Shown: piece after piece, positions 26,720 through 38,225 of the stretch | Numbering within the stretch: position 1 is the stretch's first letter | Layout: each line of letters opens with the position of its first letter | DNA from: a virus | DNA: 44,935 bases | Direction: 5' to 3' (one strand) | Virus genome (UHGV): UHGV-0175244 | Translations under genes and position numbers: made by a program | The notes under the pieces: model-generated | The model's database searches: none | What the model saw: only the letters and a program-made list of their open reading frames with translations | Told to the model about the DNA's origin: nothing

Positions 26720-26794
26720 TGGAGCATCTGGCGGGGATCGAACCCGCATATTCTGGTTGGAAGCCAGACGTAATTACCAAACTACGACAGATGC
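26720..26794 (-). tRNA. phage-encoded tRNA-Gly (anticodon UCC)
   Basis: 75-nt cloverleaf folded by hand: perfect 7-bp acceptor and 5-bp T stems, T-loop TTCGATC, anticodon loop CUUCCAA, discriminator U, CCA encoded. Confidence 0.8.
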
Positions 26795-26880: not shown

Positions 26881-26909
26881 AAAAAAGCCCAAGGCGTTAA
26901 CCTCGGGCT
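26881..26909 (-). terminator. rho-independent terminator (tR'-like) downstream of candidate late promoter
   Basis: 9-bp stem with one mismatch, followed on minus strand by U6. Confidence 0.55.
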
Positions 26910-26958
26910 TGAATTTTTTGCTTCGGAACGACTGAACGGATTCCCAGCGTTAGGGATG

Positions 26959-27029: not shown

Positions 27030-27839
27030 TTATTTCGTCACCCGGGAGAGAATGACATCAGCGTAGGATTCCTGTTTGTGACATTCGGATACCAGCTCCT
27101 CGAAGAAAGGTTTCAGTTGCTCATAAGCTGCCGTTTTCTTAATGTCAGCCACGGCCCTTACCCCTTCCATCACCGTCGAAAACTTCATGCGCGCATAACC
27201 TCTTCCGCTGCAGCGATCGCATACCTTCATTACCGGTAGCCCAAGGCGCTCGCTGGTCTCTTTATCCAGTACCTTTCCTTTTCCATTGCAGCGACACGAA
27301 TTGCTGATAACACCCTTTCCGTTACAGGCTGAGCATTTAACTTTGACCACTTCGCGCACTTCGCTCCAGCTCTCCCAGTGGCTTGGGCGAACTGCTCGGG
27401 ACATCTTTGCCCAAAAAGGTGGCTTGCCCCACGGATATGAGCATTTATTGGTGAATACCTGGGCCTCTGTGAAGCCAGTCCCATCGCAGCAAGTGCATTT
27501 TCTAACGCTGGCAGCACTTCGCGTGTAATCCTGGTATGCAAAAGCACACAGAACTTCGAGAACTCTTTTGCGAACGTCCTGGCTGAGTTCTGAAACGATA
27601 TTAAAGCGGATTGATAATCGCTCTGCTGATTCATAAAGTAGCTCCATTGCTCGGTCAGGTGCGCTCACCCCAATCTTTGCAAGATAGAGGTCGAAGCCGA
27701 ATCCGCACTTGGCATTTACCAGACCAAGAGCGGCCATGATGTCAGTGCCGGTTAGACCATCAGATGCAGTAGCCCGTGGCGAGTCGCTCAGCATTGGTGA
27801 TTTAGGCGCGAAATATTTGGCGATAGATTCGAGGTTCAT
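27030..27839 (-). CDS. Q: late-gene antiterminator Q (lambda Q family)
   Basis: N-terminus [39 protein letters not shown] closely recalls lambda Q; C-terminal CxxC zinc-finger region. Confidence 0.85.
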   Translation of the reverse strand: MNLESIAKYFAPKSPMLSDSPRATASDGLTGTDIMAALGLVNAKCGFGFDLYLAKIGVSAPDRAMELLYESAERLSIRFNIVSELSQDVRKRVLEVLCAFAYQDYTRSAASVRKCTCCDGTGFTEAQVFTNKCSYPWGKPPFWAKMSRAVRPSHWESWSEVREVVKVKCSACNGKGVISNSCRCNGKGKVLDKETSERLGLPVMKVCDRCSGRGYARMKFSTVMEGVRAVADIKKTAAYEQLKPFFEELVSECHKQESYADVILSRVTK

Positions 27840-34885: not shown

Positions 34886-35452
34886 TCACATAACTCCCGG
34901 CGCCATAGCGGCCAGACTTGTCACCACCGCAGCGATTGATTCAGTTGGCAGGAGGCGCAGCAGTGCTTCAGCAGCTTCTCTCACCTCTTTCTCAAGGCGT
35001 TGTATCGGCTGACCAAGTAACTTCGCCTGATGCGCTTCAGTGCACTCTTTCATGGCCTCGGCTATCAGTTCGGCCTCAGTCTTTGCGACAAGACCGAACT
35101 CTCTCGCCACTTTCTCGTTATCCCGAGCCATCACATCAACAATGACGGGGATAAGTAGCACCAGGCCTTTATCGTTCTTAGGTCCCGGGTCGTTAATCAT
35201 CCGGAAGAAGTTCTGCTTGGTGTTGTGCTCAGAACCGGCCAGCAGCAATCCACGACCGCCGCGCGCCAGCCACTCCTTTGCTACCAGTTGCGAAATGTGA
35301 ACCTGAGCCTGTCCGGGCGTTGCCTTCTGCCAGGCGCGAACAGCTTCGCGGATCCTGGTCAGCTTACTGTTATTGCGCGGAACGCTTTGATTTATCGAAA
35401 TCATCGGATTCGCAGTGAATCCGTTATTCTCGTGATACGTAAGTGAATGCAT
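34886..35452 (-). CDS. cII/YdaT-like regulatory protein (putative)
   Basis: 188 aa immediately downstream of cro-like gene; assignment by position. Confidence 0.35.
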   Translation of the reverse strand: MHSLTYHENNGFTANPMISINQSVPRNNSKLTRIREAVRAWQKATPGQAQVHISQLVAKEWLARGGRGLLLAGSEHNTKQNFFRMINDPGPKNDKGLVLLIPVIVDVMARDNEKVAREFGLVAKTEAELIAEAMKECTEAHQAKLLGQPIQRLEKEVREAAEALLRLLPTESIAAVVTSLAAMAPGVM

Positions 35453-35469
35453 TGCTTTCCCTTTCGTGG

Positions 35470-35703
35470 TTAGGCCGCAGTATCACGCGGCGATGCGAAT
35501 ACCAGGCTTTCTTTGAGGACCGGAGCCTGGCGGTGAAAATTCTTCGTGCCTTTTTCGATAGCAGATGCCATTTCTGGAGATGCCCGGCGATTTCCGTAGG
35601 CAATCTGGTCCAGGTAACCTGGCGTCGTGTTAGCCAACTTTGCGAGCTGTGCCCATTCGTCGGTAGTGGCGGCCTTGCGCCAGCGGTGTAGTTCAGTGCT
35701 CAT
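35470..35703 (-). CDS. cro: Cro/YdaS-like HTH regulator
   Basis: 77 aa; HTH segment WAQLAKLANTTPGYLDQIAYG; divergent from cI; GGAG RBS. Confidence 0.65.
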   Translation of the reverse strand: MSTELHRWRKAATTDEWAQLAKLANTTPGYLDQIAYGNRRASPEMASAIEKGTKNFHRQAPVLKESLVFASPRDTAA

Positions 35704-35735
35704 TGTTGTCTCCGGGTGAGTCGTTTAATTTGGAG

Positions 35736-35801
35736 TTTAGCGTTATGCTAAATACTACGCAAGCATCATTTAGCAATTTGCACATTTATCATTCTGCTAA
35801 A
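35736..35801. promoter_or_regulatory. OR operator region (PR/PRM) between cro and cI
   Basis: 17-bp palindrome tttagcgttatgctaaa (35736-35752) plus two related sites; possible PRM -10 TAACAAT at 35807-35813 giving leaderless cI. Confidence 0.5.
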
Positions 35802-35819
35802 AGCAGTAACAATGCAGGG

Positions 35820-36497
35820 ATGGAAAATAAAGAAATCAGAAAAGCCAACCTGGAAGCGCTGTACGAGAAACGTCAGCACGAATCTGGAATGACCAAGGCG
35901 CAGTTCGCCGAGCTCATCGAGACAAGTCCGGCTGCGCTTAGCCAGCTACTGGGACCAAACCCTCATCGCAATATCGGCGATAAGATGGCTCGCAAAATTG
36001 AAACTGCGCTTGATCTGCCTTTTGGCTGGATGGATGTTTTACACGCCAGTGAAGAACCTTCGAACGTTGCATTTCGAGGACTTAACGAGATAAAAGGAAG
36101 TTATCCTGTGATCAGCTGGGTAAGCGCGGGGCAATGGATGGAAGCTGTAGAACCTTATCACCGAAGAGCGATAGATCGCTGGTATGACACGACCGTTGAT
36201 TGTTCAGAAGATTCATTCTGGCTTGACGTTAAAGGGGATTCTATGACCTCCCCGGCCGGACTGAGCATACCAGAGGGAGCAGCGATACTTGTTGATCCTG
36301 AAGTCGAGCCGCGCAACGGAAAGCTGGTTGTCGCGAAGCTAGAAGGCGATAACGAAGCGACCTTTAAGAAGCTTGTAATCGATGCCGGCAGACGCTTCCT
36401 TAAGCCACTTAACCCCGCGTATCCAATGCTAGAAGTTAATGGAAACTGCAAAATTATTGGCGTTGTGGTCGATGCAAAAATACTAAACATCCCATAA
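35820..36497 (+). CDS. cI: CI-type repressor (HTH plus LexA-like S24 peptidase domain)
   Basis: 225 aa from ATG at 35820; HTH MTKAQFAELIETSPAALSQLL; C-terminal autocleavage-domain character; listed ORF start 35703 is a TTG artefact. Confidence 0.85.
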   Translation: MENKEIRKANLEALYEKRQHESGMTKAQFAELIETSPAALSQLLGPNPHRNIGDKMARKIETALDLPFGWMDVLHASEEPSNVAFRGLNEIKGSYPVISWVSAGQWMEAVEPYHRRAIDRWYDTTVDCSEDSFWLDVKGDSMTSPAGLSIPEGAAILVDPEVEPRNGKLVVAKLEGDNEATFKKLVIDAGRRFLKPLNPAYPMLEVNGNCKIIGVVVDAKILNIP

Positions 36498-36580: not shown

Positions 36581-36655
36581 TTAATCAAAAAGCTAAATAA
36601 AATCCGCCAATAATTTAGCATTTTGCTATTGCGCATAATTTAGCATCACGCTAAA
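36581..36655. promoter_or_regulatory. OL operator region / candidate pL
   Basis: perfect 17-bp site tttagcatcacgctaaa (36639-36655) plus two degenerate copies; same half-sites as OR. Confidence 0.45.
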
Positions 36656-37150
36656 TTTACCCCATCGAAACGAAACATCGACAGCTGAGCGAAGTTAGCC
36701 AGCGGCGGATAGCGAGTCGCCTGCTCATTAAGAATTCAGTCAAGCAGCAAATCACCCGGAGCGCTCCTGGCAAATTGAAATGGCGCCCAATGGGATTGAG
36801 GCAGGTGTGTAACGCGTGGCGGGTATAGCACACGAAGAGGACTCCGCACCGGAATGGTTTGCTGCTCAGTTCCCGAACATCGGGGAATCTTCAGTGGGAA
36901 TGTTTTGGGATTGGATGAATGCGCAGGCTGATGCGCGGGGTGGAGCGGCCCGGGTGGCTACTGAATCAAGACAGGCTGTAAGACAAGCTGTGTAAATAAC
37001 TGGTAAGCCGTAGTAGCCAATAAAGCAGGTGAAAATCATAACGTCTATCCCGCTTCGGCGGTGGCAGCTAACACCTGTGATAGTCAATGCCGGAGATCAG
37101 CGCCGGCCATCCAATCACCAAAGCATTTCGATTCATCAACCCACGCAACA

Positions 37151-37241
37151 AAGGAGCTTCTATGCGACGGCAAAGCTATATCGCTCACAAATAATCGGTA
37201 CCACAAATGCTTTCGGAAACCCCGGCGATGTCGGGGTTTTT
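37151..37241 (+). other. strong RBS plus 10-codon mini-ORF followed by rho-independent terminator (attenuator-like)
   Basis: AAGGAG-5nt-ATG CGA CGG CAA AGC TAT ATC GCT CAC AAA TAA (37162-37194); then accccg-gcgatgt-cggggt plus T-run (37219-37241). Confidence 0.4.
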
Positions 37242-37389
37242 GGTGAGTGCTTTGGGTTGGCAGACGGTTATCAGCTAGTTGGTGAGGTAATGGCTCACCA
37301 AGGCGACGACGACCTTCCCCGCTTCATTGTGGGGAGCCAGCGCCAAAGCATTTCTCCCGCATCAGCGGGTAACGACAGAGGGTAAGGCG

Positions 37390-37557
37390 ATGAGAAACAC
37401 AACAGATAAATATGCTGCCGAGTGCAGTGAAGATTACAGGCAGTATCGCAAAAAATGTCGAGCATCAGTGCGTGGTGATGGGTTTCATGACCTTTGGGTA
37501 AAGCTGGCATGGATGTGCCGACGCAACGCACGAGAATGGATTAACAGAGCCGCCTAA
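37390..37557 (+). CDS. small hypothetical protein (55 aa, Cys/Arg-rich)
   Basis: internal ATG (M22 of listed ORF) with GGGTAAGG RBS; stop codon sits in loop of a strong terminator. Confidence 0.4.
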   Translation: MRNTTDKYAAECSEDYRQYRKKCRASVRGDGFHDLWVKLAWMCRRNAREWINRAA

Positions 37558-37571
37558 CCAGCGGCTTTTTT
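37549..37571 (+). terminator. rho-independent terminator
   Basis: gccgc-ctaacca-gcggc followed by T6. Confidence 0.6.
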
Positions 37572-37707
37572 CATACCTCAGTCGCTTCACCGAGGCGGCT
37601 TAGTTATGACAATCGGCGGCCATCCACCGCCCATTGAAACACTGAATAAATGCGTTGAAGTCTTGTATTAACCGTTCGGCGGCGCGGCCTTAAGCGCGGA
37701 GATGATT

Positions 37708-38064
37708 ATGAAATACACCATGAAGGTTTATAAAAACTCTGATGACCATGCTGCTTATCTGAAAGCGCGATCCGACAGCGCCAGAAATGGCCAGTCATTT
37801 GAATGGGCGGGTCACCGCTGGGCGTACGAAGTCACCAGTTTTGACGATGCCGGCGATTACGACCTGCTTTACCGGTTTGATGACAAGCCATATCCAGAAG
37901 AAGTTTCAGTCACTACAGATGACATGACGATCCGTGACTACTTTGCGGCCAAGGCTATGCAGGGAATCATCAGCAGCGAATGCAAATATGGAGCGTTTAG
38001 TTATTTAGCAAGCGATGCATACAGCATTGCCGACGCAATGCTCCGCGCCCGGGAGGCATCATGA
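37708..38064 (+). CDS. small acidic hypothetical early protein
   Basis: 118 aa from ATG with GGAG 7 nt upstream; Asp/Glu-rich. Confidence 0.45.
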   Translation: MKYTMKVYKNSDDHAAYLKARSDSARNGQSFEWAGHRWAYEVTSFDDAGDYDLLYRFDDKPYPEEVSVTTDDMTIRDYFAAKAMQGIISSECKYGAFSYLASDAYSIADAMLRAREAS

Positions 38065-38225
38065 CAGTCACCCACAACGGCAGGCAGTACACCTTTAAGC
38101 GCTGCGCCATGAACGATAACGAATGGCGGCTAACGTCGATCACCAATCTGCGAGAGCAGGTCACACTGAACAGCGGGCAGATGCACATTGCTGGCTTACT
38201 GGCCCAGGTGGAGGGTAAAAAATGA
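38061..38225 (+). CDS. small hypothetical early protein
   Basis: 54-aa ORF not in ORF track; GGGAGG RBS; ATGA overlaps with both neighbours. Confidence 0.4.
   Translation: MTVTHNGRQYTFKRCAMNDNEWRLTSITNLREQVTLNSGQMHIAGLLAQVEGKK

What the first reader, a model, noticed from the sequence alone, without database searches (positions are those of the whole stretch)
37390..37571. Small Cys/Arg-rich protein gene whose stop codon lies inside a terminator loop
A 55-aa ORF (MRNTTDKYAAECSEDYRQYRKKCRASVRGDGFHDLWVKLAWMCRRNAREWINRAA) is the first convincing coding sequence of the early-left operon. Its TAA stop sits in the loop of a strong rho-independent terminator (gccgc-ctaacca-gcggc plus T6). The arrangement suggests a short, self-contained transcription unit or a regulated termination point, possibly a small regulator taking the place of the N-nutL module.
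Basis: seen in the sequence. Interest (0 to 1): 0.4.

Follow-up and report, generated by a model that had tools for sequence, protein, structure and literature searches.

The report
Small early gene overlapping its terminator
A real, conserved 55-residue phage protein gene ends inside the first transcription terminator of the early-left operon of a lambda-like prophage; it is not a stand-in for the N antiterminator, because in related phages it sits right behind a genuine N gene.

Summary
ORF 37390-37557 is a genuine gene: synonymous sites are saturated while dN/dS is about 0.1. It has about 36 protein clusters and 58 viral loci, all unannotated. Its TAA (37555-37557) lies in the loop of a hairpin plus T6 (37546-37571). 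That hairpin is the homologue of the annotated phage phi80 terminator tL1A.

The gene replaces phi80 'N' exactly, between conserved flanks, but it is not an N analogue. It has no N-family match and no N-terminal Arg-rich motif. It is predicted to fold confidently as a two-helix hairpin. In at least 15 related loci it lies 2-18 nt (once 53 nt) downstream of a true N gene. Only Cys12 is widely conserved, so 'Cys-rich' is not a family trait.

The stop-in-loop arrangement is conserved. About 15 hairpin sequence variants keep the stop codon in the loop, with the last two codons forming the 5' arm. In phi80-like phages this position is a hypervariable first-gene slot, and every occupant's stop codon abuts or enters the terminator.

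Most likely the region is the immediate-early pL unit of an N-less phage, and its terminator is bypassed when the ORF is being translated. The protein's own function is unknown; it is basic and possibly binds nucleic acid.

A 16S rRNA helix-11 mimic in the leader is the most unusual by-product.

The parts
36592..36657 (.). OL operators (TTTAGC..GCTAAA repeats) overlapping promoter pL (-35 TTGCGC 36629-36634, -10 TAAATT 36652-36657)
   Evidence: Repeat family D1 and inverted repeats I1/I7 are shared with the OR region at 35732-35799. The hexamers align with the annotated pL -35/-10 of phi80.
36663..36707 (+). Conserved 5' end of the pL transcript (CCATCGAAACGAAACATCGACAGCTGAGCGAAGTTAGCCAGCGGCG)
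   Evidence: Nearly invariant in window, phi80, HK225 and HK639. Present upstream in 62 of 77 related IMG/VR loci.
36722..36734 (+). rrn-type boxA-like element TGCTCATTAAGAA
   Evidence: Aligns with the annotated phi80 nutL boxA. It is the only such site in the regulatory region, with none in the pR transcript. The match count itself is not above chance.
36899..37131 (+). Structured leader RNA module 1, closed by the helix AAUGUUUUGGG / CCAAAGCAUUU
   Evidence: MFE -87.3 kcal/mol, z -3.8, 0 of 200 shuffles fold as well. Its hairpins GCGCAGGCUGAUGCGC and GCCGGAGAUCAGCGCCGGC recur in the ZCEC13-type element.
37217..37241 (+). Intrinsic terminator inside the leader (AAACCCCGGC-GAU-GUCGGGGUUUUU), preceded by a 10-codon mini-ORF at 37162-37194
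   Evidence: Fold -22.5 kcal/mol, z -4.3. The same terminator precedes the helix-11 element in many IMG/VR loci.
37245..37354 (+). Three-way-junction leader RNA. Hairpin 37266-37314 copies 16S rRNA helix 11; the second hairpin is 37316-37335; the closing helix uses the 12-nt repeat CCAAAGCATTTC.
   Evidence: Fold -66.2 kcal/mol, z -4.3. 40 nt are 95% identical to Salmonella 16S nt 233-272 (H51). 101 IMG/VR contigs carry the motif. Compensatory changes and G-U pairs favour the + strand. No Rfam match.
37356..37389 (+). 'Linker': hairpin CCCGC-AUCA-GCGGG (37356-37369) plus Shine-Dalgarno (37378-37387), the upstream boundary of the variable gene slot
   Evidence: Conserved in front of phi80 N, HK639_44, HK225_040/039 and L007. 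Present once downstream of the helix-11 element in 69 of 77 loci.
37390..37557 (+). 55-aa protein gene ('X'): a basic two-helix hairpin in an uncharacterised family
   Evidence: purifying selection; pLDDT 91.8; helices 4-25 and 32-54.
37546..37571 (+). Rho-independent terminator, homologue of phi80 tL1A. The stop codon TAA 37555-37557 lies in its loop, and the last two codons (GCC GCC) form the 5' arm.
37571..37631 (+). Conserved downstream spacer: hairpin 37580-37600 (extended pairing 37571-37609) and GGCGG-CCATCCA-CCGCC at 37615-37631, the downstream boundary of the slot
   Evidence: Fold -17.7 kcal/mol. Aligned in phi80, HK225, HK639, L006 and L007. GGCGGCCATCCACCG is found 267-1064 nt after the helix-11 element in 57 loci.
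37702..38064 (+). Next pL-operon gene (phrog_37111, unknown function), followed by a 54-aa ORF, kil (38222-38425), gam-like (38842-39162) and recT (39178-40023)
   Evidence: These are the delayed-early genes that lie beyond the terminator.

Best explanation
The finding is the promoter-proximal (immediate-early) unit of the early-left operon of an N-less, phi80-like lambdoid prophage. The order is pL, a roughly 730-nt structured leader, the 55-aa gene X, then terminator tL1A.

X belongs to a conserved, uncharacterised family of basic two-helix-hairpin proteins. Its usual home is between the N gene and the first pL terminator. Here it sits alone in a hypervariable first-gene slot, bounded by a conserved linker hairpin upstream and by tL1A downstream.

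The terminator is built on the gene's end: the last two codons are its 5' arm and the stop codon is in its loop. Inferred mechanism: a ribosome finishing X occupies the 5' arm while RNA polymerase is on the T-tract, so translated transcripts read through into kil-gam-recT-xis-int. Untranslated or uncoupled transcripts end at about 37566-37571. Termination is therefore gated by translation of X, not by an X-encoded antiterminator.

The protein itself is most likely a small nucleic-acid- or transcription-complex-binding accessory factor that acts in the first minutes of infection. This last point is the weakest.

Shown: gene reality, family, genomic contexts, terminator homology, and conservation of the stop-in-loop arrangement. 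Inferred: translation gating and the protein's activity.
For: Gene reality: purifying selection, 36 clusters, 58 viral loci, and a confident fold.

Position: the flanks are shared with phi80 N/tL1A, HK639 and HK225.

X follows N: Pfam N_peptide or N36 genes lie directly upstream in L008, L012 and L016, and further upstream in L017. L014 is near the cutoff. Seven of 10 IMG/VR upstream ORFs tested are N-family.

Stop-in-loop conservation: 25 of 54 parsed IMG/VR loci have it, in about 15 hairpin variants that keep the pairing, for example GCCGCC-TAA-CCA-GCGGC, GGTCGCT-TAG-GCGGCC, GGCTGCC-TAA-CGGCGGCC and GGCCGCA-TAG-T-CGGCC.

Slot architecture: at all 48 distinct slot ends, the last ORF's stop codon is 0-11 nt before the hairpin or is the TAA in its loop. 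Sixteen ORFs (63-238 codons) end Ala-Ala-stop or Ala-Ala/Leu-stop using the terminator's own codons.

Published experiment: an intrinsic terminator placed a few bp after a translated gene is almost completely repressed in E. coli (Li et al. 2016, PMC4824070).

No alternative antiterminator is evident. There is no N-family ORF in the leader. Only 17 nt separate cro from the cII-like gene, leaving no room for a nutR. There is a single boxA-like site.

Basic character: pI 9.7 and net charge +6, with invariant R44 and R48 on helix 2.
Against: There are no transcript or translation data. Translation gating is inferred from geometry and from one published model system.

In phages that have N, the same arrangement exists although N could do the job. 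The overlap may therefore serve another purpose, such as mRNA 3'-end stability or compaction, or may simply mark a recombination junction.

One large Klebsiella-phage clade (24 loci, Chronis type) and the most distant members have X but no terminator at its stop.

A second intrinsic terminator (37217-37241) lies upstream of X, and translation of X cannot suppress it.

Fold and sequence searches give no functional hint for the protein: all PDB matches have E > 1, and the only viral match is a family member.
Confidence: 0.55

Rival explanations
1. X is a novel, very small N-type processive antiterminator that replaces N-nutL. It would bind a leader RNA element and modify RNA polymerase so that it passes tL1A and later terminators.
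For: It replaces phi80 'N' exactly. It is the first gene after pL and is followed by terminators. A boxA-like element is kept in the leader. Its basic helix WMxRRNAREW loosely recalls arginine-rich motifs. No other antiterminator was found for pL.
Against: X coexists with bona fide N genes in many phages, lying 2-18 nt (once 53 nt) downstream of them. It has no N-family match. It is predicted to be folded rather than disordered. There is no nutR space and no second boxA. Chronis-type phages have X behind a roughly 70-nt leader with no boxA and no terminator. The slot holds at least 35 unrelated genes in related phages, and HK639 fills it while using put RNA.
Confidence: 0.07
2. The overlap of stop codon and terminator has no regulatory meaning. 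It would be a by-product of genome compaction and of module exchange at a fixed junction. tL1A would act as a constitutive, partly leaky terminator and 3' stabiliser of the immediate-early mRNA, whether or not X is translated.
For: The terminator is a cassette boundary shared by unrelated genes, with junctions exactly at the stop codon. The arrangement also occurs in phages that have N. Some X clades lack it.
Against: The stop codon is held within 0-11 nt of the hairpin at all 48 distinct slot ends. It is also held inside the loop through about 15 compensated hairpin variants. That is tighter than compaction alone requires. Published data show such proximity strongly represses termination (PMC4824070).
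Confidence: 0.28
3. Antitermination in this phage is RNA-based, like put in HK022 and HK639. One of the structured leader modules (36899-37131 or 37245-37354) would act in cis on RNA polymerase, and X would be unrelated cargo, for example a host-takeover or anti-defence protein.
For: The phage lacks N. Its pL 5' leader and slot flanks are shared with put-using HK639. The leader holds two very stable conserved structures. The slot is hypervariable, as accessory-gene hot spots are.
Against: There is no sequence similarity to the annotated HK639 putL. No second copy exists in the pR transcript. The modules are three- or four-way junctions of 110-230 nt, not a roughly 70-nt two-stem V shape located just after the promoter (PMC9378689). 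An intrinsic terminator sits between the two modules.
Confidence: 0.1

Closest known systems
Phage phi80 pL - 'N' - tL1A unit (GenBank JX871397 annotation)
   Same: The pL -10 region, 5' leader and boxA position are the same. So are the 56 nt upstream of the start codon (96% identical) and the terminator hairpin and downstream spacer (89% identical).
   Different: The gene between the flanks is unrelated (55 aa against 98 aa). The window's leader is about 300 nt longer and carries two structured RNA modules and an internal terminator. The phi80 stop codon (TAG) abuts the hairpin instead of lying in its loop. phi80 'N' itself has no Pfam N match, and its PHROG has unknown function.
Lambda immediate-early unit pL-nutL-N-tL1
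   Same: It is the promoter-proximal short unit of the early-left operon, ended by an intrinsic terminator ahead of kil/gam/recombination/int genes. In many relatives X is part of exactly this unit (pL-N-X-terminator), including behind a lambda-N orthologue.
   Different: The window has no N gene, no recognisable boxB and no nutR. Lambda has no X gene (from memory of the lambda map).
Ribosome-dependent control of intrinsic terminators (pyrBI-type attenuation; the stop-codon-to-terminator distance effect of Li et al. 2016, PMC4824070)
   Same: A translated ORF runs into a terminator hairpin, so a closely following ribosome should prevent hairpin formation.
   Different: X is a conserved, folded protein under purifying selection, not a dispensable leader peptide. 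No sensing step (such as a nucleotide or amino-acid pause) is evident. Nothing has been tested experimentally.
HK022 Nun / HK639_44: non-antiterminator occupants of the N position
   Same: A gene unrelated to N sits between pL and the first terminator, and HK639 has the same flanks.
   Different: There is no sequence similarity to X, and HK639 carries an annotated put-like RNA that the window lacks.
Rop/Rom-type small helical-hairpin RNA-binding proteins (structural analogy only, recalled from memory)
   Same: About 55-63 residues, two antiparallel helices, and a basic surface.
   Different: There is no sequence or significant fold-search match. Neither dimerisation nor RNA binding was tested.

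Membership tests
Lambdoid N antitermination proteins (Pfam PF11438 N36, PF25694 N_peptide, PF26859) | Sequence match to an N family profile | tested here: not met
   No Pfam, PHROG or NCBIfam hit at E <= 0.1. True N genes next to X homologues score 37-85 bits.
Lambdoid N antitermination proteins (Pfam PF11438 N36, PF25694 N_peptide, PF26859) | N-terminal arginine-rich motif in a roughly 90-130-aa, largely disordered protein | tested here: not met
   X is 55 aa. Its N-terminus (MRNTTDKYAAEC) is not Arg-rich. AlphaFold predicts a folded two-helix hairpin with pLDDT 91.8.
Lambdoid N antitermination proteins (Pfam PF11438 N36, PF25694 N_peptide, PF26859) | Cognate nut sites (boxA plus boxB hairpin) in both the pL and pR transcripts | tested here: not met
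   There is one boxA-like site, in the pL leader only. The cro stop and the next start codon are 17 nt apart. No repeat is shared between the two transcripts.
Lambdoid N antitermination proteins (Pfam PF11438 N36, PF25694 N_peptide, PF26859) | One such factor per phage (mutually exclusive alleles at the N locus) | tested here: not met
   X co-occurs with N in L008, L012, L016 and L017, and in at least 11 IMG/VR loci.
Rho-independent (intrinsic) terminator; phi80 tL1A homologue | G+C-rich hairpin immediately followed by a U-tract on the transcribed strand | tested here: met
   5-8 bp stem, 7-nt loop, T6, -11.6 kcal/mol, z -3.0.
Rho-independent (intrinsic) terminator; phi80 tL1A homologue | Homology to, and the same position as, an annotated terminator, with compensatory variation | tested here: met
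   Aligned with phi80 tL1A. A GCCGC/GCGGC versus CCCGC/GCGGG variant occurs. A tL1A-like terminator is found downstream in 59 of 77 related loci.
Rho-independent (intrinsic) terminator; phi80 tL1A homologue | Transcripts actually end there | not testable with these tools
   Needs Term-seq, Northern analysis or in vitro transcription.
Leader-peptide attenuator | A short ORF whose translation, not its product, matters, so the peptide sequence is poorly conserved | tested here: not met
   dN/dS is about 0.1 and the fold is conserved. The product is under selection, although translation may also gate the terminator.
Cys-rich / zinc-binding small protein | A conserved set of Cys/His ligands | tested here: not met
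   Only Cys12 is widely kept. Cys23 is lost in P0027, P0030, P0049, P0056 and P0057. Cys43 is specific to the window's clade. The invariant residues are E11, V37, A40, R44 and R48.
HK022/HK639 put-type antiterminator RNA (considered for the leader) | A roughly 70-nt two-stem-loop RNA just downstream of pL, with a similar second copy downstream of pR | tested here: inconclusive
   No similarity to HK639 putL and no second copy. No put covariance model was available for a structural test.

The most novel reading that the evidence does not exclude
The pL-proximal slot may be an N-independent developmental switch. Under this reading, read-through of tL1A into the delayed-early genes depends on translation of whichever small gene occupies the slot. 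That translation would in turn be set by the 5'-UTR three-way junction, whose hairpin copies 16S rRNA helix 11, the binding site of ribosomal protein S17. The phage would then read the host's pool of free ribosomal protein, and so its growth state, to decide how far early-left transcription proceeds. X would additionally be a new small factor acting on early transcription complexes.
Probability: 0.08. Interest if true: 0.85.

Novelty: new variant of a known kind. Interest (0 to 1): 0.42.

Why it matters
Lambdoid early regulation is a textbook system, yet many lambdoid phages have no recognisable N and no put RNA. This locus gives three testable leads.

1. A conserved small protein that normally accompanies N has never been named or studied.
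2. The first early-left terminator is built onto the stop codon of whatever gene precedes it, in dozens of phages. This predicts termination that depends on translation.
3. The gene position behind pL is a hypervariable cargo slot with fixed RNA-structured boundaries. That makes it a useful landmark for finding accessory genes.

If translation gating is real, it would explain how N-less phages reach their delayed-early genes. If it is not, the finding is an ordinary hypothetical gene next to a known terminator.

Tried and rejected
- Function by homology failed. Pfam, PHROGs and NCBIfam gave nothing for X. A PDB profile search found only a de novo designed protein at E 0.15.
- Fold search failed. 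Foldseek against PDB gave only generic helical hairpins at E > 1, and BFVD returned only a family member.
- The first AlphaFold run with 7 close sequences was poor (pLDDT 62). It was superseded by the 29-sequence run.
- The exhaustive profile search gave long repetitive eukaryote-like proteins with multiple partial matches. I judged these spurious repeat-inflated hits and kept only the 52-73-aa members.
- The zinc-finger idea was rejected because the cysteines are not conserved.
- A minus-strand protein under the leader was considered, because PGAP annotates an 'ECs_2282 family zinc-binding protein' antisense to it in E. coli. The real domain is only the C-terminal 60 aa, the rest is over-extension, and the window has no such domain.
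- Rfam at gathering and at E <= 10 found nothing convincing in 36600-37720. The only hits were a weak partial rydB match (19 bits) and terminator look-alikes.
- The genome-contig scan returned only 2 loci.
- The phi80 genome paper (PMC3510586) is not held, so what is known experimentally about phi80 N and nut could not be checked.
- Literature searches for a phage 16S helix-11 mimic found nothing relevant.

Full report
**Setting**

The window is a lambdoid prophage. A LexA-type cI repressor (35703-36497, +) and cro (35470-35703, -) diverge from operators at 35732-35799. A second operator set lies at 36592-36657. Downstream on the + strand come kil (38222-38425), a gam-like gene (38842-39162) and recT (39178-40023). 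Integrase and an attachment-site tRNA were not checked against a family profile. The + strand here therefore corresponds to lambda's leftward pL operon. The -35 and -10 hexamers (36629-36634, 36652-36657) align with the annotated pL of phage phi80. Transcription should start near 36664, giving about 730 nt of leader before the ORF of the finding.

**Observation check**

The 55-aa ORF (37390-37557) and the hairpin plus T6 (37546-37571) are exactly as described, and the TAA at 37555-37557 lies in the loop.

The ORF is a real gene. Against five homologous loci, synonymous sites are almost saturated (pS 0.72-0.92). Non-synonymous differences stay at 0.20-0.31, and dN/dS is 0.10-0.15 where it can be measured. 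The family comprises 36 clusters of 48-82 aa (most 52-57) from Enterobacter, Klebsiella, Serratia, Photorhabdus, Providencia and Mixta prophages. All are labelled hypothetical. There are also 58 IMG/VR loci.

With 29 sequences AlphaFold gives a confident two-helix hairpin: pLDDT 91.8, with helices 4-25 and 32-54. The invariant residues are E11, V37, A40, R44 and R48. Cys23 and Cys43 are not conserved, so the protein is basic (pI 9.7) but not a cysteine-motif protein.

The terminator folds at -11.6 kcal/mol with z = -3.0. More importantly, it is the homologue of the annotated phi80 rho-independent terminator tL1A.

**The gene occupies the N position but is not an N analogue**

Window 37338-37393 is 96% identical to the 56 nt that precede and include the start codon of phi80 'N'. 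Window 37548-37677 is 89% identical to tL1A and its downstream spacer. Only the gene between these flanks differs. HK225 and the put-RNA phage HK639 have the same flanks around yet other genes.

X itself matches no N family. It lacks an N-terminal arginine-rich motif, is half the size of any N, and is predicted to be folded.

The decisive evidence is context. X lies 2-18 nt downstream of Pfam-confirmed N genes in a Mixta prophage (L008), an Enterobacter prophage (L012) and L016. In L017 the N gene lies further upstream. In L014 the upstream ORF scores just below the N_peptide cutoff. In IMG/VR at least 11 further loci show an N-type ORF directly upstream of X. Seven of 10 such ORFs tested hit PF11438 (lambda N36) or PF25694. 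They include a near-orthologue of lambda N (MDAQARRRERRAEKQAEWKAANP...).

X is therefore a companion gene located between N and the first pL terminator. The window's clade has X without N, and so do L006, L007 and the Klebsiella phages Chronis and ST15-VIM1phi2.1.

**The stop-in-loop arrangement is conserved**

In 25 of 54 parsed IMG/VR loci the X stop codon lies in the loop of a hairpin followed by a T-run. About 15 sequence variants preserve the pairing. Examples are GCCGCC-TAA-CCA-GCGGC, GGTCGCT-TAG-GCGGCC, GGCTGCC-TAA-CGGCGGCC and GGCCGCA-TAG-T-CGGCC. In each, the C-terminal (Val/Ala)-Ala codons form the 5' arm. One Klebsiella-phage clade (24 near-identical loci) and the most distant members lack a terminator there.

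Independently, I collected 77 phi80-like loci through a leader motif. In these the position behind the linker is hypervariable, with at least 35 unrelated first genes. Even so, at all 48 distinct slot ends the last ORF's stop codon is either 0-11 nt before the hairpin (32 cases, mostly directly abutting it) or is the TAA within the loop (16 cases). In those 16, otherwise unrelated ORFs end with Ala-Ala-stop or Ala-Leu-stop supplied by the terminator.

**How it most likely works**

In E. coli, an intrinsic terminator placed a few base pairs after a translated gene is almost completely repressed. Efficiency recovers as the distance from the gene grows (Li et al. 2016, PMC4824070). With the stop codon inside the loop, a ribosome completing X covers the 5' arm.

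I therefore infer that tL1A terminates mainly transcripts that are untranslated or uncoupled, and lets translated ones continue into kil-gam-recT-xis-int. This would give an N-less phage a route past its first terminator.

The phage shows no other pL antiterminator. There is no N-family ORF in the leader. Only 17 nt separate cro from the cII-like gene, so a nutR does not fit. There is a single boxA-like site. The simple terminator scan listed no G+C-rich, T-tailed terminator in the pR operon before the Q-dependent late region; Q-like is 27030-27839 (-) and the strongest hit is 26910-26885. That scan also missed both pL-leader terminators, so its silence is weak evidence.

Three points limit this inference:
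- The same overlap exists where N is present.
- Another intrinsic terminator (37217-37241) lies upstream of X.
- Nothing here is experimental.

For the protein itself I can only say that it is a folded, strongly basic helical hairpin made in the first transcription unit. A nucleic-acid- or transcription-complex-binding accessory role is my best guess, held with low confidence. Fold and profile searches gave no lead.

**The leader**

The 730 nt upstream of X are not coding but are highly structured. Two modules are each closed by the same helix, (A/G)UG(U/C)UUUGGG paired with CCAAAGCAUUU(C). This explains the 12-nt direct repeat at 37118 and 37343.

- Module 1 (36899-37131) folds at -87 kcal/mol with z = -3.8.
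- Module 2 (37245-37354) folds at -66 kcal/mol for 37243-37392 with z = -4.3. It is a three-way junction.

One hairpin of module 2 (37266-37314) reproduces 16S rRNA helix 11. Forty nucleotides are 95% identical to Salmonella 16S nt 233-272. From memory, it is closer still to Vibrio- or Pseudomonas-type 16S. Helix 11 is the binding site of ribosomal protein S17 (PMC4604426, PMC3359968).

A specific pattern for this element hits 101 IMG/VR contigs, in two architectures:
- Class A is in lambdoid pL leaders. Of the 77 loci, 62 have the conserved pL 5' leader upstream and 59 have a tL1A-like terminator downstream.
- Class B is a four-way junction in ZCEC13-like phages. Window module 1 shares its two flanking hairpins.

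Blastn also finds helix-11-like stretches in Yersinia, Shewanella, Stenotrophomonas, Streptomyces, Moraxella and Serratia phages. Compensatory changes occur in the closing helix and in the second hairpin. The Yersinia phage has an entirely different second hairpin. Frequent G-U pairs support an RNA structure on the + strand, but the class A sequences are too similar for strong statistics. Rfam has no match, and I found no paper describing the element.

The element is not tied to X. It precedes many different slot genes, and most X loci lack it.

**Comparison with known systems, and novelty**

The terminator is already annotated in phi80. The immediate-early unit follows the lambda paradigm. 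Non-N occupants of the N position are known (Nun in HK022, recalled from memory; the HK639 slot genes).

What appears undescribed:
- the X family and its regular placement between N and tL1;
- the evolutionary maintenance of the stop codon inside or against the terminator hairpin;
- the fixed-boundary hypervariable slot.

I rate the finding a new variant of a known kind, of moderate interest (0.42). The rRNA-mimic leader is potentially more novel, but it lies outside the finding and is only partly followed up.

Noticed in passing
window 37245-37354 (+); also L006 3650-3760, L010 about 1480-1600, L018-L118: The pL leader contains a three-way-junction RNA. Its hairpin at 37266-37314 is a near-copy of 16S rRNA helix 11, the S17 binding site. 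A specific pattern hits 101 IMG/VR contigs, and helix-11-like stretches occur in unrelated phages of Yersinia, Shewanella, Stenotrophomonas, Streptomyces, Moraxella and Serratia. There is no Rfam match and no literature was found. The function is unknown; a ribosomal-protein-binding leader is one idea.
   Followed up: partly
window 36899-37131 (+): A second very stable leader module (-87 kcal/mol, z -3.8) is closed by the same helix motif as the helix-11 element. It contains the hairpins GCGCAGGCUGAUGCGC and GCCGGAGAUCAGCGCCGGC, which flank the helix-11 copy in ZCEC13-type (Jedunavirus) phages. Part of it resembles E. coli sRNA rydB weakly (19 bits, below threshold). A Mixta prophage (L008) conserves the same pieces.
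   Followed up: partly
window 37162-37241 (+): A 10-codon mini-ORF (MRRQSYIAHK) with a strong Shine-Dalgarno is followed by a strong intrinsic terminator (37217-37241, -22.5 kcal/mol). Both sit inside the leader, between the two RNA modules and upstream of the 55-aa gene. The same terminator precedes the helix-11 element in many IMG/VR loci. How transcription passes it is unexplained.
   Followed up: partly
L018-L118 (IMG/VR), L001-L003; window 37356-37631: In phi80-like phages the first gene position behind pL is a hypervariable cargo slot holding at least 35 unrelated genes. Its fixed boundaries are a linker hairpin CCCGC-AUCA-GCGGG plus Shine-Dalgarno upstream, and tL1A plus GGCGGCCATCCACCGCC downstream. 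The recombination junctions fall exactly at the start and stop codons.
   Followed up: yes
L001 1918-2214 (phi80 gene N): The phi80 protein annotated as 'early transcription antiterminator protein N, similar to lambda N' matches no Pfam N family, and its PHROG (25091) has unknown function. Because it sits in the hypervariable slot, the annotation may rest on position only.
   Followed up: partly
window 35452-35472 (-) and the pR operon down to about 27000: The cro stop codon and the start of the cII-like gene (34886-35452) are only 17 nt apart, so there is no room for a nutR/tR1 region. The simple terminator scan listed no G+C-rich, T-tailed terminator on the minus strand before the Q-dependent late region. 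That scan also missed both pL-leader terminators. Only one boxA-like site exists in the regulatory region (36722-36734).
   Followed up: partly
L119 1170-1643 (-), L120 1169-1621 (-) (E. coli chromosomes): RefSeq annotates 150-157-aa 'ECs_2282 family putative zinc-binding protein' genes antisense to the pL leader RNA modules. Only the C-terminal roughly 60 aa match the family model. The N-terminal 80-90 aa look like over-extension through the structured RNA region.
   Followed up: partly
window 27030-27839 (-), 26885-26910 (-), 26723-26794 (-), 43606-43679 (-): A Q-type late antiterminator (PF03589 plus a DnaJ-like CXXCXGXG zinc finger) is followed by a strong terminator. One tRNA gene lies just downstream of that terminator. 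A second tRNA lies next to a 387-aa ORF (42424-43587) that was assumed to be the integrase and was not checked against any family profile; it may be the attachment site.
   Followed up: no
window 36663-36707 (+); L001, L002, L003, L007: The first roughly 45 nt of the pL transcript (CCAUCGAAACGAAACAUCGACAGCUGAGCGAAGUUAGCCAGCGGCG) are almost invariant in phi80, HK225, HK639, L007 and the window. This holds although the phages differ in immunity region and in presumed antitermination mode. A shortened relative is present in the Klebsiella phages Chronis and ST15-VIM1phi2.1. The role is unknown.
   Followed up: no
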